A DNA stretch of 64,000 nucleotides from the human T2T-CHM13v2.0 reference genome, Homo sapiens: the NCBI RefSeq assembly GCF_009914755.1, contig NC_060926.1; one strand, given 5' to 3'. How positions within the stretch are numbered: the first letter of the stretch is position 1; every line of letters starts with the position of its first letter. Of the stretch, positions 4,164 to 36,879 are shown piece by piece. The position numbers and the translations under genes are program-made. The notes beneath the pieces are model-generated. The model was not told the DNA's origin, searched no databases, and worked only from the letters and a program-made list of their open reading frames with translations.

Positions 4164-4989
4164 CTAAAACAAATATTTGTATTTCTCCTTACACCAAAGT
4201 AGCCTTATTTTGGTCATAACTGCCTAGTTTCGACTCACATTGCAGCAAGTTTATTTTATCAACTGTGGTTTAACGTTTTATATTTGCTTTATGTTTCTAA
4301 TCCATAGGTAAGTTACGGTGGTTTTACTCCCAGCAATGTCTACTTAGTTAACATTTTTTATATTTCATATACCATTGCTGTGTTTAGATAGAGGAGATTG
4401 TTTTTTCAAAAGCTAACCCCTTGGCTATATAAATCCATGTTAATGTTTATACATAAAGATTTTTTACACCACTAACAGAATACTTAGAAATCATTTTTGA
4501 AATGAAACTTTGAATATAATGCCAATGATTCATTGGATTTATTTCTTCATTGAATAGCCACATATATGTTTTATAAAATTGTCGTAAATGTTTCTTTCAC
4601 TTTACTATGTATAGACTTAGTAAAGTCAATATGGAATGACATATATCCATCTGCTGTGACCAAAACATACTTTAATTTTCTTAGCAAGGGGTAACTATTG
4701 AATTTATTTCTATTTTTATTTCTCAAAATAGACAACTTTATTTCATTTTATTACATATATGTTTTTGAGAGATATTTTCATGTTAATTTATAAAGGAATT
4801 GAGTTTATTTTGAGATACTGATGTAATTTATTATTATTTTGTATGCAAAGTCATTTTAAATCTTCTACACATGATTAAGGAGATTTAAGCAGAGATTGTC
4901 TTTCTGTCCAAAGAACTCATTTTTTCTTCATCCTGTGTTTACTGATAGGCTGTATTTCCCAGCTTTCTTGGAGCTTGGGGTAACATTTG

Positions 4990-7900
4990 TTTTTGTTTTT
5001 GTTTTTTAATTGACCTAAGTTCTGGGATACATGTCCAGAACGTGCAGGTTTATTATACAGGTAAACGTGTGCCATCGTTGTTTGCTGCCCCTATCAACCA
5101 GTCACCCAGGTAATAAGCCCCACATGCATTAACTATTTGTCCTGATACTCTTCCTCCCTTCGGCTCAGCACAACAGGCCCTGGTGTGTGTTGTCCCCCTC
5201 CCTGTGTCCATGTGTTCTTACTGTTCAGTTCTCACTTACGATAAGTACATGCGGTGTTTGGTTTCCTGTTCCTGTGTTAGTTTGCTGAGGATGATGGCTT
5301 ATACCTTCATCCATATCCCTTTAAAGAACATGATTGCATTCCTTTTTATGTCTGCCTAGTATATCACGGTGTGTATGTACCAAATTTTCTTTATTCAGTC
5401 TATCATTAGTAGGCATTTGAGTTGGTTCCATGTCTTTTATATTGTGAATATTGCTACAATAAACATATGTGTGCATGTATCTTTATAACAGAATGATTTC
5501 CATTCCTTTGGGTATTTACTCAGTACTGGGATTGCTGGGTCCAGTGGTATTTCTGGTTCTAGATCCTTGAGGAATTGCCACACTGTGTTCCACAATGGAT
5601 GAACTAATTTACATTCCCACAAACAGTGTAAAAGCGCTCCTATTTCTTCACAGCTTCACCAGCATCAGTTGTTTCTTGACATTTTAATAATCACCATTCT
5701 GACTGGTGTGAGATGGTATCAGTTGATGATCACCATTCTAACTAGCATGAGGTGGTATCTCATTGTGGTTTTGATTTGCATTTCTCTAATGACAGTGATG
5801 ATGAGCTTTTTTTCATATGTTTCTTGGCCACATAAATGTCTTATTTTGACAAATGTCTGTTCATATACTTCGTTCACTTTTTGATGGGATTCTTTGTTTT
5901 TTTCCTGTTAATTTATTTAAGTTCCTTGTATATTTTGGATATTAGACCTTTGTCAGATTGATAGATTGCAAAAATTGTCTCCCATTCTGTAGGTTGTCTG
6001 TTCACTCTGATGATTGTTTCTTTTGCTGAACAGAAGCTCTTCAGATTTATTATATCCCATTTGTCAATTGTGGCTTTTGTTGCAATTGCTTTTGGTGTTT
6101 TAACCATGAAGCCTTTGCCCATGCCTATGTCCTAAATGGTATTGCCTAGGTTTTCTTCTAGGGTTTTTATGGTTTTAGGTTTTACATTTAAGTCTTTAAT
6201 CCATCTTGAGTTAATTTTTGTATAAAGTGTAAGGAAGAGGTCCAGTTTCTGTTTTTTGCATATGGCTAGCCAGTTTTCCCAGCACCATTTCTTAAATAGG
6301 GAATCCTTTCCCCGTTGCTTGTTTTTATCAGGTTTGTTGAAGATCAAATGGTTGTAAATGTGTGGTGTTATTTCTGAGGCCTCTGTTCTGTTCCATTGCT
6401 CTATATATTTGTTTTGGTACCAGTACCTTGTTGTTTTGATTACTGTAGGCTCGTAGTATAGTTCAAAGTCAGGTAGCATGATGCCTCCAGTTTTGTTCTT
6501 TTTGCCTAGGATTTTCTTGGTTATATGGGCCCTTTTTTGGTTGCATATGACATTTAAACTAGTTGTTTCTAGTTCTGTGAACAAAGTCAATGGCAGCTTG
6601 ATGGGACTAGCATTAAATCTATAAATTACTTTGGGCAGTATGGCCATTTTCACAATATTGATTCTTCCTATCTATGAGAATGGAATGTTTTTCAATTCAT
6701 TTGTGTCCTCTCTTATTTCCTTGAGTAGTGGTTTGTAGTTCTCCTTGAAGAGGTCCTTAATATCCCTTGTTAACTATATTCCTAGGTATTTTATTCTATC
6801 TGTAGCAATTGTGAATGGGAGTTCATTCATGATTTGACTTCCTGCTTGTCTGTTGTTGGTGTATAGGAATGCTTGTGATTTTTGCACTTTGATTTTGTAT
6901 CCTCAGACTTTGCTGAAGTTGCTGATCAGCTTAAGGAGCTTTTGGGCTGAGATGATGGGGTTTTCTAAATATAGGATTATATAATCTGCAAACAGAGGCA
7001 ATTTGACTTCCTCTCTTTCTATTCGAATACCCTTTCTTTCTTCCTCTTGCCTGACTGCCCTGGCAAGAACTTCCAATAGATTTAATGCTAGTCCCATCAA
7101 GCTGCCATTGACTTTGTTCACAGAACTAGAAACAACTAGTTTAAATGTCATATGCAACCAAAAAAGGGCCCATATAACCAAGAAAATCCTAGGCAAAAAG
7201 AACATGTTGTATAGGAGTGGTGAGAGAGGGCATCCTTATCTTGCACCGTTTTCAAAGCGAATGCTTCCAGCTTTTGCCCATTCAGTATGATATTGGCTAT
7301 GAGTTTGTCATAAATTGCTCTTATTGTCTTGAGATATGTTCCTTCAATACTTAGTTTGATAGAAGTTTTTAAAATGAAGGGATGTTGAATTTTATCGACG
7401 GCCTTTTCTGCATCTATGGAGACAATCATGTGGATTTTTTTCACTGATTCTCTTTATGTAATGGATTATGTTTAATGATTTGCTTATGTTGAACCAGCCT
7501 TGCATCCCAGGGAAGAAACTGACTTGATAGCGGTGGATAAGCTTTTTGATATGCTGCTGGATTCCTCAGAGCTAGCAGGAGGAAAGACTAAGTCTGCCGG
7601 TCCATGGAGACTATGGCCACCCCTCCCACTAGGGGTTTAGACCCAGGGAGATCAGAGTTCTGACCCTGAGGCCCTGGCTGGAGTTGTTGGAGTTCCTATA
7701 GAGAGGCCTTGCCCAGTGAGGGGGCATGGGTCAGGGTCCAGCCTAAAGATGCAGTCTGGCTGCAGTCTGCCACAGCTGGTGTGCTGTGTTATGGGGAATA
7801 CCTCTTGGGACCAGGCCGTCCAGGCTCCCTGGCTTCAGTAGGGTGAAATCTGGCCCTAGAGCCATAGTGAAGGCTGCTGCCCTTTCACCCTTGGAGTTTA

Positions 7901-8424
7901 GTGTCTTAGGCAGCTAGCAGCCACAGTGTTGGCTGTCGCCCATTCCCCGGGGAGCTCAGAGGGCCTAGACAGCAAGCAGCAGCAGCAGTGGTGATGGCCA
8001 CTCCTCCTCCTGGGAACTCAGTAGGCTTAGGCATATTCCAGGTGAGTGGCTGTTGAGAATCTGTACAGTTCCATGGTTGGGACCCGAGGCCCTGGTGGCA
8101 TGGGCTCATGAGTGGGATCTTCCGATCCATGGGTTACCCAGTTCTGTGGAAAAAGCATGGTTTCCCAGGCTGGGCAGCATGCTCACTCAATGCCTCCCTT
8201 GGCTGGGGTATGGGGCTCCTCTGCCCAGTGTGGCCCTCAGGTGAGCTGACGCACCAACCTACTCTTCCCTCCTCTCTCTGGGTTACGCCAGCCACCTAGT
8301 CAGTACTGATGACAGAATTTGGATACTTCGGTTGCCAGTGCAGAATTCATACTCTGTTTTGATTCTTTTTTGTGGGAGCCTCTGATTGCTGCTGCTTCTA
8401 GTCAGCCATCTTGTCCCTGTCCCC
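4990..8424 (-). mobile_element. Older L1PA element with intact 5' and 3' ends but an internal deletion of ORF1 and the ORF2 N-terminus
   Basis: Poly(T)/3'UTR from about 4990; ORF2 remnants in the ORF track (5437-7444); GC-rich 5'UTR 7565-8424 ending in the reverse complement of caagatggctgactagaagcagc; target-site duplication (TSD) tggggtaacatttg (4976-4989) / tggggttccatttg (8425-8438). Confidence 0.9.
6494..7204. repeat. Perfect 129-bp inverted repeat (arms 6494-6622 and 7076-7204, 453-bp spacer)
   Basis: Base-by-base comparison: 7076-7204 is the exact reverse complement of 6494-6622. The same peptide ([42 protein letters not shown]) appears in ORFs on both strands. Confidence 0.97.
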
Positions 8425-8613
8425 TGGGGTTCCATTTGACCAAACAAGACCTGCTTAAATGTGAGGGGAACTGGTATGCACCGGTCATTTCTAAACATTG
8501 GTGCAAAAACCACAATAACCTTTGCATCAATCTTATACTAAATTTTTAAATGAATGTTTGATTCTCCAAGTGCTTTCCCTCAGTACAAGTTTGATGTACA
8601 TGAGAACACTTAC

Positions 8614-34957: not shown

Positions 34958-36879
34958 AAACAAACAAAGAAAACTCCAGGTATTAGAGCTACCTGACAAA
35001 AATTCATGCTGAGCCTGAACTTCCAAGTGACAGCAGAACTGAAAATGATATGTCTGCACAAATGCCACGGCTGAGTGACACAGGCATGTTATAGCAAAAG
35101 GCCAGAGCCAACTGTTAATTTGTCCACAATTAAGAAACTGACAGACTTAAACTACCATATAAAATGTTACATGTAAATTCTATAACAATACTGTTCTAGG
35201 TACAAGATTTTTAAAATTTTTATTTTAATAAAAAAGCTTTACACAAACAAGCCATTAGCTTATTTCAAGAAAGAAAACCGAAAATTAGTCTAAGGCCTTT
35301 GTTTTAAATCAGCTTAAGCTATATGATATATATATGTGTGTGTGTGTATATATATATGTATACACACACATATATATGTATACATATGTACACACACATA
35401 TATGTATATATATGTACACACATATATGTATATATATGTACACACATATATGTATATATATGTATTCACACGCATATATGTATATATGTATTCACACACG
35501 TATATATGTATATATGTATACACACGTATATATGTATATATGTATACACACGTATATGTATATATATGTATACACACATATATACACACATATATATATT
35601 TTATATGCATATATATGTGTATATATGCATATATATATATTTTTTAATTGCACTAGATCATTTTTTGCTATCCTCTTTCTGAAGTTTTTGGGATCCATTC
35701 TTCAATTCACATTCTAAAATACCTATATTAGCAGAGTTTTCACATAGCACCAGTTAAGTGAGAACTGTGCAAACACAGTAATAATTGCTGGTATGCATAT
35801 AAAATGCATCAAAAATTGCTATATGTAACAATGAGATTACCCATCCCAACCCCTCCCACTGAAAACTATATAACCTCTTACAGAATGTTAGTGTTCCAAG
35901 CCTTAGTGTAACTTGATATCGTAGTGAGCTACTTGGTCCCTTTCAATCCTTTTTCTTATTGATGGGTTCAGTTGTTTCCTACTGTAAGAGGCAGTTTTCT
36001 GTCAGCATCTCAATATGTAGTTCATTTCCCACTGAAACATGGGATAGGTAATTTATTTCCAGTAAGTTTGATTGTTTTCGTATATGCATTAAAAATGTTT
36101 TAAAGTCTTCTTTGACTTTTCTTGATGACTTCCCTTGCAAAAGTTTATGTCAGTACTGCCACTAACAGCCTGAAGTCCATGGTGGAGCTGCTATTTTATT
36201 TCTCACATGTCACTAGTCCTTCTGTTTTCATAGTTACAGGAAGGGTAATAGCTGAAGGCGCACTGACAACCACTACGTGGGTCACTGTCTTATTTCCATC
36301 TGCCGGTTTTTCTTCTACTAGCTGCAAAGTTTTCACATCATGTTCTTGCTTTTTTGCCACTGCTTCCGATTTAACCTCTGGCACCTTTATGACTGCACTG
36401 ATAACTCGAGGAGGAGTCTGGCCAGATGCCTGCTGAGTAGGCATTGATAGTCTCATCACAGATGTACCATGGGCTATTGAAACAGGGGTAAGTGCTCTCA
36501 CAGCCAGTGGGGTCCCAACAATGTTAATGCTTCCTGATCCAGTCAGATTTGACTTTGTCTGCAGTTGGCACTGTGCAAGCTGTGTAGCTGGGATGGTAAC
36601 AATTTTGGCAGGCTGCATGGTCATTTTGTCTCCATTTTCGGTAGAAGCTGGCATCACAGTAGGGATTGTCTGAATGACTACCTTTGGAGAGGTCGCTGTT
36701 GTTGGACTAGTGCTGGTTATTAATGGTGCACCTGCATTAACTGACTGAACTGCCACAGTTGAAATTTTCTAACCCAATGATGTCATTACAACAGATACCT
36801 GTATTGCCACACAAACTGTCCTTGGAGCTGCTGTTGCTGACACAGATGCAGTGGTAGTAGGAGACCTGGATGAAGCATC
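34772..36879 (-). pseudogene. ELF2: 5'-truncated processed pseudogene of ELF2 (E74-like ETS factor 2): C-terminal CDS remnant 36196-36879, about 1.4 kb of 3'UTR and poly(A)
   Basis: Translation DASSRSPTTTASVSATAAPRTV…VVMTSLG*KISTVAVQSVNAGAPLITSTSPTT…MKTEGLVTCEK* matches the ELF2 C-terminus. In-frame TAG at 36769-36771; no ETS domain; no intron visible; poly(T) at 34772-34782. It is one of the ELF2P loci (possibly ELF2P4, which cannot be verified here). Confidence 0.93.
35320..35640. repeat. Compound (TA/TG/CA) micro/minisatellite inside the ELF2 retrocopy 3'UTR
   Basis: Repeating units of about 22-24 bp such as tatatatgtacacacatatatg. Confidence 0.95.

What the first reader, a model, noticed from the sequence alone, without database searches (positions are those of the whole stretch)
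6494..7204. Perfect 129-bp inverted duplication inside an old, diverged L1
Seen: 7076-7204 is a 129/129 reverse complement of 6494-6622, including substitutions that look private to this decayed L1 copy. It sits in the ORF2 motif ttccaata(ct)atgttg, apparently replacing 2 bp, with 3-bp (ata) and 1-bp microhomologies and no TSD. Inference: either a recent replication template-switch (FoSTeS/MMBIR) insertion made long after L1 integration, or arms homogenised by gene conversion or recurrent inversion of the 453-bp spacer. It could form a cruciform or a dsRNA hairpin (ADAR substrate) and may be polymorphic.
Basis: partly seen in the sequence, partly recalled or inferred. Interest (0 to 1): 0.72.

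Follow-up and report, generated by a model that had tools for sequence, protein, structure and literature searches.

The report
Small inverted duplication in old L1
A 129-base stretch of a dead L1 retrotransposon on human chromosome 2 is repeated perfectly, back to front, 453 bases away; it is likely a one-off DNA copying error of a common, already described kind, with no sign of function.

Summary
7076-7204 is an exact reverse complement of 6494-6622 (129/129, 453-nt spacer), the only such local pair in 264 kb examined. In 9 of 9 related L1 copies there is one arm only and 2 bases where the window has 125 (net +123 bp). The spacer keeps the ancestral orientation. All 13 bases private to this L1 copy in arm 1 recur in arm 2, so the copy was made long after the L1 inserted, not by twin priming. 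Junction microhomology is 3 and 1 nt, with no target-site duplication. This matches the published human 'inverted duplication' class (under 1 kb, within 5 kb of the donor, microhomology; the commonest non-L1 inversion-type variant) and has 3-2-1-4 template-switch geometry. A replication template switch is most likely; break fold-back is the main rival. Perfect identity dates it only to within about 8-23 million years. Two CN1 haplotypes have no structural variant called here against CHM13, which argues against an assembly error and hints at a common or fixed allele. A cruciform is unlikely, and no annotated transcript covers it. Ordinary; interest 0.15.

The parts
6494..6622 (+). Arm 1, the donor: ordinary L1 ORF2-region sequence in its native place
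   Evidence: Collinear with 9 of 9 relatives at 81-88% identity; 13 locus-private bases
6623..7075 (+). 453-nt spacer, native L1 sequence in ancestral orientation
   Evidence: Same strand as both flanks in 9 of 9 relatives
7076..7204 (-). Arm 2, the inserted inverted copy of arm 1; 7079-7203 (125 nt) is new and replaces 2 bases, net +123 bp
   Evidence: 129/129; 2 bases in 9 of 9 relatives
7076..7078 (+). Junction 1: 3-nt microhomology with the complement of 6620-6622
   Evidence: no other locus among the 40 best-scored of 453 candidates spans the whole junction query
7204..7204 (+). Junction 2: 1-nt microhomology with the complement of 6494
   Evidence: no other locus among the 40 best-scored of 262 candidates spans the whole junction query
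4990..8424 (-). Host element: decayed L1 (L1PA-type; subfamily label recalled, not tested) with both ends present and an internal deletion; ORF2 region broken in all three frames
   Evidence: Poly-T tail and 3' UTR; relatives 80-85% over 1.5 kb; 22-53 stops per frame in 5401-7560
4976..4989 (+). Left copy of the L1 target-site duplication
   Evidence: 12 of 14 identical to 8425-8438
8425..8438 (+). Right copy of the L1 target-site duplication
7553..7564 (+). Junction of the L1's internal deletion, joining ORF2-region sequence to the 5' UTR through about 8-12 nt of shared sequence
   Evidence: ORF2-side alignments end at 7563-7564 and 5'-UTR-side alignments start at 7553-7560
7553..8424 (-). 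L1 5' UTR (old promoter region), about 350 nt upstream of arm 2 on the L1 sense strand
   Evidence: 77-81% identical to 39 other genomic copies; alignments reach about 8412-8425

Best explanation
It is a single-copy, 129-bp inverted duplication inside a decayed L1, likely made in one germline event when a stalled replication polymerase switched template, copied the opposite strand 453-582 nt back, and returned 2 bases further on. Shown: the geometry, the one-arm ancestral state, the copied private substitutions, and the 3-nt and 1-nt microhomologies. Inferred: the 3' end at 7078 paired through 3 nt with 6620-6622 on the other template, copied back to 6494, and rejoined the original template at 7204 through 1 nt, losing 2 bases. 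This is a '3-2-1-4' event; its mirror image, started from the right-hand side, cannot be told apart. It most likely has no function. I put about 0.9 on a single local templated copy made after L1 decay, and about 0.6 on the replication-fork route specifically.
For: Exact 129-nt inverse copy. One arm and 2 intervening bases in 9 of 9 relatives. Private bases copied; chance of zero mismatches if the arms were as old as the L1 is 5e-8. Junctions not seen elsewhere among the best-scored hits. Passages of PMC4617611: 54% of 229 characterised inversion sites were inverted duplications, nearly all under 1 kb and within 5 kb of the donor, potentially from replication errors. Passages of PMC12350158: 277 inverted duplications, median 284 bp, mostly 1-15 bp microhomology, a replicative origin suggested. 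Passages of PMC5453318: 3-2-1-4 and its mirror make 31% of human-chimp template-switch events, and inter-strand switching is favoured.
Against: The sequence cannot separate a fork switch from fold-back at a break. The microhomologies are weak: 32 sites within 1 kb upstream offer the same 3 nt, 9 offer 4 nt and 2 offer 5 nt, so they do not explain the donor choice. The donor lies further back than the 100-200 nt lagging-strand gap quoted in PMC7999016, so an impaired fork must be assumed. No ape orthologue or read data was seen. The pre-event sequence is inferred from paralogous L1s, not from an orthologue.
Confidence: 0.6

Rival explanations
1. A double-strand break near 7079 was resected, the left 3' overhang folded back on itself at the 3-nt microhomology, was extended 125 nt, unwound, and was joined to the right end by NHEJ or polymerase-theta end joining.
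For: Gives the identical product, including the 2-bp loss and the near-blunt second junction. Passages of PMC11724301: yeast fold-back inversions of 2 to about 150 bp, captured with 0-5 bp microhomology. Passages of PMC7165422: polymerase theta makes inverse-repeat templated insertions.
Against: The yeast fold-backs used a 10-nt imperfect microhomology with a 41-nt loop and were mostly under 14 bp. Polymerase-theta primary tracts are rarely over 10 bp and typically templated within 30 bp. Here one error-free 125-nt tract comes from 453 nt away and needs at least 585 nt of resection.
Confidence: 0.27
2. The duplication is older than it looks, and gene conversion or template switching between the arms has since made them identical.
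For: Inverted arms 453 nt apart can pair in single-stranded DNA. Private-base density in arm 1 (13 of 129) is somewhat above the flanks (29 of 453; 46 of 692), though on small numbers.
Against: Identity runs to the last base of both junctions with no diverged fringe. The spacer is not inverted. No conversion is needed for any age below about 8-23 My.
Confidence: 0.08
3. Assembly or cell-line artefact of CHM13 (a fold-back chimera or a private mutation).
For: I could not see reads or a second human sequence directly.
Against: The CN1-versus-CHM13 tables of SVs over 50 bp (PMC10542383 supplement file 2) have no row at CHM13 chr2:186,006-186,007 kb for either haplotype and none at chr2:185.8-186.2 Mb among the rows shown; the maternal sheet has a chr2 row at 186.44 Mb. 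Clean junctions with a 2-bp loss are typical of the biological class.
Confidence: 0.03
4. An L1 integration by-product (twin priming or a rearranged source element).
For: It lies in an L1, and twin priming is the main source of inversions under 2 kb (abstract listing and passages of bioRxiv 2021.12.20.472354).
Against: The L1 continues collinearly on both sides and keeps its 5' end and TSD. Post-insertion private bases are copied; P = 5e-8 for arms as old as the element. No other copy carries the junctions among the best-scored hits.
Confidence: 0.01

Closest known systems
'Inverted duplication' SV class of the 1000 Genomes Project (Sudmant 2015, PMC4617611; Schloissnig 2025, PMC12350158)
   Same: Duplicated stretch under 1 kb, inverted, inserted within 5 kb of its donor, short microhomology at the junctions, no retrotransposition hallmarks.
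   Different: Those were catalogued as polymorphisms between human genomes; this one is in the CHM13 reference and may be fixed. At 129 bp it is below the 284-bp median.
Four-point template-switch mutation, type 3-2-1-4 / 1-4-3-2 (Loytynoja and Goldman 2017, PMC5453318; Loytynoja 2022, PMC9435742)
   Same: Switch-point order 3-2-1-4, reverse-complement fragment, new inverted repeat with an uninverted spacer, return just downstream of the departure point.
   Different: Longer fragment and a longer jump (453-582 nt) than typical; the 2022 survey used 150 bp of context.
MMBIR-type templated insertions, MMB-TI (Osia 2021, PMC8421209)
   Same: Inverted copy of a nearby template flanked by microhomology; about 100 germline events of 25 bp or more per person were reported.
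   Different: That search was limited to templates within 100 bp.
Fold-back inversions at breaks (yeast, PMC11724301) and polymerase-theta inverse-repeat insertions (PMC7165422)
   Same: Same product geometry; near-blunt capture junction.
   Different: Usually much shorter tracts and much nearer templates.
L1 twin-priming inversion
   Same: Inverted L1 sequence inside an L1.
   Different: Forms at integration and inverts the 5' part; here the L1 is collinear on both sides and the copy post-dates decay.

Membership tests
Inverted duplication SV class | Extra copy of a nearby segment in inverted orientation, donor retained | tested here: met
Inverted duplication SV class | Copy under 1 kb, within 5 kb of the donor | tested here: met
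   129 bp, 453 nt apart; criterion from PMC4617611 passage
Inverted duplication SV class | Microhomology of 1-15 bp rather than long homology at the junctions | tested here: met
   3 nt and 1 nt; criterion from PMC12350158 passage
Inverted duplication SV class | No TSD or poly(A) around the inserted copy | tested here: met
   2-bp loss rather than duplication in 9 of 9 comparisons; no tail in the sequence
Inverted duplication SV class | Segregates among human haplotypes | tested here: inconclusive
   No row in the CN1 tables or in the held supplements of PMC12350158 and PMC10150506; full callsets not held
Four-point template switch 3-2-1-4 | Derived allele = left flank + reverse-complement fragment + right flank, with switch order 3-2-1-4 | tested here: met
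   Against paralogous L1s
Four-point template switch 3-2-1-4 | Ancestral allele seen at the orthologous locus | not testable with these tools
   No ape or second human genome sequence is held
Polymerase-theta templated insertion (TINS) | Primary tract rarely over 10 bp, template typically within 30 bp | tested here: not met
   125-nt tract from 453 nt away against PMC7165422 passages
L1 twin-priming inversion | Inverted 5' segment abutting the TSD, formed at integration | tested here: not met
   Internal position, collinear flanks, copied private bases
Repeat-mediated (NAHR) recurrent inversion | Spacer found in both orientations | tested here: inconclusive
   Ancestral orientation in CHM13; no inversion row in the CN1 tables; population data not held
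Known structured RNA family | Rfam match at gathering score | tested here: not met
   0 matches in 4900-8500

The most novel reading that the evidence does not exclude
The internal deletion placed the old L1 5' UTR about 350 nt upstream of the new inverted repeat. If that promoter, or read-through from LOC124906104, is active in some tissue, a hominid- or human-specific template switch would have created de novo a transcript with a perfect 129-bp double-stranded stem (ADAR, Dicer or MDA5 substrate), possibly with a spacer that flips between the arms in some people.
Probability: 0.05. Interest if true: 0.5.

Novelty: new member of a known kind. Interest (0 to 1): 0.15.

Why it matters
It matters little by itself: it is one more instance of the commonest non-L1 inversion-type small structural variant, in an intergenic dead L1. 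It is a clean teaching example, because the surrounding repeat supplies the ancestral state and shows the order of events (L1 insertion and decay, then the templated copy). It suggests a simple way to find fixed events of this class from one genome: local inverted pairs inside old repeats whose arms are far more alike than the repeat's age allows. It would matter more only if it proved to be transcribed as dsRNA or to drive a spacer inversion.

Tried and rejected
Twin priming and a rearranged source element: rejected. Present-day spacer inversion: rejected for CHM13. Extended microhomeology at the junctions: none of note. Rfam: no match. Locus look-ups in print found nothing. PMC4617611 supplement: 1 text file, searched with hg19 prefixes from a recalled, unverified offset. 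PMC12350158: 3 files, CHM13 coordinates. PMC10150506: 3 files. PMC10542383: 2 files. PMC12058530: the only file was an unreadable scan. A search for ELF2P4 gave one unrelated paper (listing only). Two papers with SV tables that I asked for by recalled id were not held. None of this shows the locus is absent from dbVar, HGSVC, HPRC or gnomAD, which I could not see; unseen supplements may list it. A wider background count was planned, but only 264 kb on chr2 could be examined, so no genome-wide frequency is given.

Full report
Observation. The repeat finder gives arms 6494-6622 and 7076-7204, 129 nt, 100% complementary, 453 nt apart. A direct string test and an alignment confirm 129/129 with abrupt ends. 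The arm is 36% GC with no CpG. In a self-comparison of 264 kb (the window plus the 200 kb upstream fetched), 2 local inverted pairs had length >=40, identity >=90% and gap <=5 kb: this one and an AT microsatellite. It was also the longest of 106 exact inverted matches of 30 nt or more. Chance is not an explanation. This sample is small and from one region, so it gives no genome-wide rate.

Host element. The repeat lies in a minus-strand L1 spanning about 4990-8424. It has a poly-T tail and 3' UTR on the left, a 5' UTR on the right that is 77-81% identical to 39 other genomic copies, and a 14-nt target-site duplication with 12 matches (4976-4989 and 8425-8438). An internal deletion joins ORF2-region sequence to the 5' UTR at 7553-7564 through a short shared stretch. 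The three sense frames of 5401-7560 hold 22-53 stops each. Relatives are 80-85% identical over 1.5 kb. That it is a mid-aged L1PA-type element is my recollection; no repeat library was available to test it.

Ancestral state. I compared the locus with the nine related L1 loci returned (L002-L010; the search scored 40 of 8854 candidates). In 9 of 9, arm 1, spacer and both junction flanks are on one strand, there is a single arm, and exactly 2 bases separate the equivalents of 7078 and 7204. In the 6 of 9 printed by my pattern these 2 bases are CT. So 7079-7203 (125 nt) is new, 2 bases were lost, and the net gain is 123 bp. The spacer has not been inverted. Searches with 76-77-nt junction queries returned full-length matches only at this locus among the 40 best-scored of 453 and 262 candidates; this is not an exhaustive uniqueness test.

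Timing. 13 of 129 arm-1 positions carry a base shared by at most one relative; the figures are 29 of 453 in the spacer and 46 of 692 in the left flank. All 13 are present in arm 2. If both arms had diverged since L1 insertion at about 6.5% each, the chance of no mismatch would be 5e-8. The copy therefore post-dates most of the element's decay, or the arms were later homogenised. The opposite bound is weak. With assumed rates of 0.5, 1.0 and 1.5e-9 per base per year (recalled range), the 95% upper age is 23, 12 and 8 million years, and the chance of no mismatch after 7 million years is 0.41, 0.16 and 0.07. It cannot be called human-specific from this evidence.

Junctions. Microhomology is 3 nt at the first junction and 1 nt at the second, with no meaningful extension. 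Within 1 kb upstream, 32 sites offer the same 3 nt, 9 offer 4 nt and 2 offer 5 nt. The microhomology is compatible with priming but does not explain why this donor was used. There is no target-site duplication or tail around the insert.

Real or artefact; fixed or variable. I could not see reads or another genome. Indirectly, the CN1 paper (PMC10542383; passages and supplement file 2 searched) lists SVs over 50 bp between each CN1 haplotype and CHM13, 11,281 and 11,012 in all. No row has CHM13 chr2 coordinates beginning 186006 or 186007. No chr2 row at 185.8-186.2 Mb appears among the first 14 places shown for each of four prefixes, which run past chr2 in both sheets. The maternal sheet does have a chr2 row at 186.44 Mb; I saw no nearby chr2 row for the paternal sheet among the places shown. 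The file was cut when stored, and the caller's sensitivity is unknown. A 123-bp difference should qualify, so both CN1 haplotypes probably carry the insertion. That argues against an artefact and hints at a common or fixed allele, on two haplotypes only.

Mechanism. The derived allele is left flank + reverse-complement fragment + right flank, with switch order 3-2-1-4 in the four-point model. That type and its mirror create an inverted repeat, make up 31% of high-confidence human-chimp events, and are argued to be mostly inter-strand (PMC5453318, passages). I favour a microhomology-primed switch at an impaired fork (about 0.6). Fold-back of a resected break end followed by end joining gives the same product (about 0.27). 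However, the yeast events were mostly under 14 bp with a 10-nt imperfect primer and a 41-nt loop (PMC11724301, passages), and polymerase-theta tracts are rarely over 10 bp and typically templated within 30 bp (PMC7165422, passages). Against my own choice, the donor lies beyond the 100-200-nt lagging-strand gap quoted in PMC7999016 (passages), and one locus cannot separate the two routes. Conversion of an older duplication (0.08), artefact (0.03) and twin priming (0.01) are the remaining rivals.

Comparison with what is known. Sudmant 2015 (PMC4617611, passages) found 54% of 229 characterised inversion sites to be inverted duplications, nearly all under 1 kb and within 5 kb of the other copy, and not typically tied to retrotransposition. 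Schloissnig 2025 (PMC12350158, passages) found them the commonest class among 733 non-MEI inversions (277 events, median 284 bp), mostly with 1-15 bp microhomology and suggested to be replicative; a supplement passage puts such subclasses at under 50 sites per genome. Osia 2021 (PMC8421209, passages) reported 103 and 99 germline templated insertions in two people. Loytynoja 2022 (PMC9435742, first of six parts) found thousands of short template-switch clusters. The locus meets every structural criterion of the class that I could test. I found no mention of this locus in the searches listed under Tried and rejected, but the population callsets were not available.

Function. The single strand folds into a 129-bp stem (DNA -188 kcal/mol, z = -27 against 20 shuffles; RNA -337 and -319 kcal/mol for the two strands), as any perfect inverted repeat must. 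A cruciform starts from the centre and is disfavoured by long spacers (PMC7999016), so it is unlikely with 453 nt between the arms. Rfam gives no match. The annotation shows no transcript over the repeat; predicted LOC124906104 ends at 5393. The one feature that keeps a functional reading open is the L1 5' UTR about 350 nt upstream on the minus strand, but it is about 20% diverged from its relatives and its activity is untested. I give that reading 0.05.

Verdict. The feature is real and was described accurately. It is a new member of a known and common kind, probably neutral. Interest 0.15.

Noticed in passing
window 7553-7564: The host L1 has an internal deletion joining ORF2-region sequence directly to the 5' UTR through about 8-12 nt of shared sequence, while keeping both ends and a 12/14 TSD. 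Roughly 3 kb is missing if a full L1 is about 6 kb (recalled). A microhomology-mediated deletion, at or after integration.
   Followed up: partly
window 5684-5759: An older direct duplication in the same L1: two 37-nt copies, 39 nt apart, 81% identical.
   Followed up: no
window 35311-35660: A TA/CA-rich microsatellite tract that is self-complementary (73% over 133 nt), inside the annotated span of pseudogene ELF2P4.
   Followed up: partly
G000:C2:185,960,154 and 185,996,437 (loci L033, L036): An exact 122-nt inverted match 36 kb apart, with further exact blocks of 51-56 nt at similar spacing; possibly two young repeat copies in opposite orientation.
   Followed up: no
G000:C2:185,851,294-185,860,899 and 185,953,343-185,953,521 (loci L022, L023, L032): Four local direct pairs of 90-162 nt at 92-97% identity, one of them tandem.
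   Followed up: no
L010:2265-2979: Related locus L010 has 5'-UTR-like sequence within about 400 nt of its ORF2-region match, so it may be another internally deleted L1.
   Followed up: no
window 4990-5393: The last exon of predicted lncRNA LOC124906104 (+ strand, ends at 5393 in the annotation given) overlaps the L1 3' end in antisense and stops 1.1 kb before arm 1.
   Followed up: no
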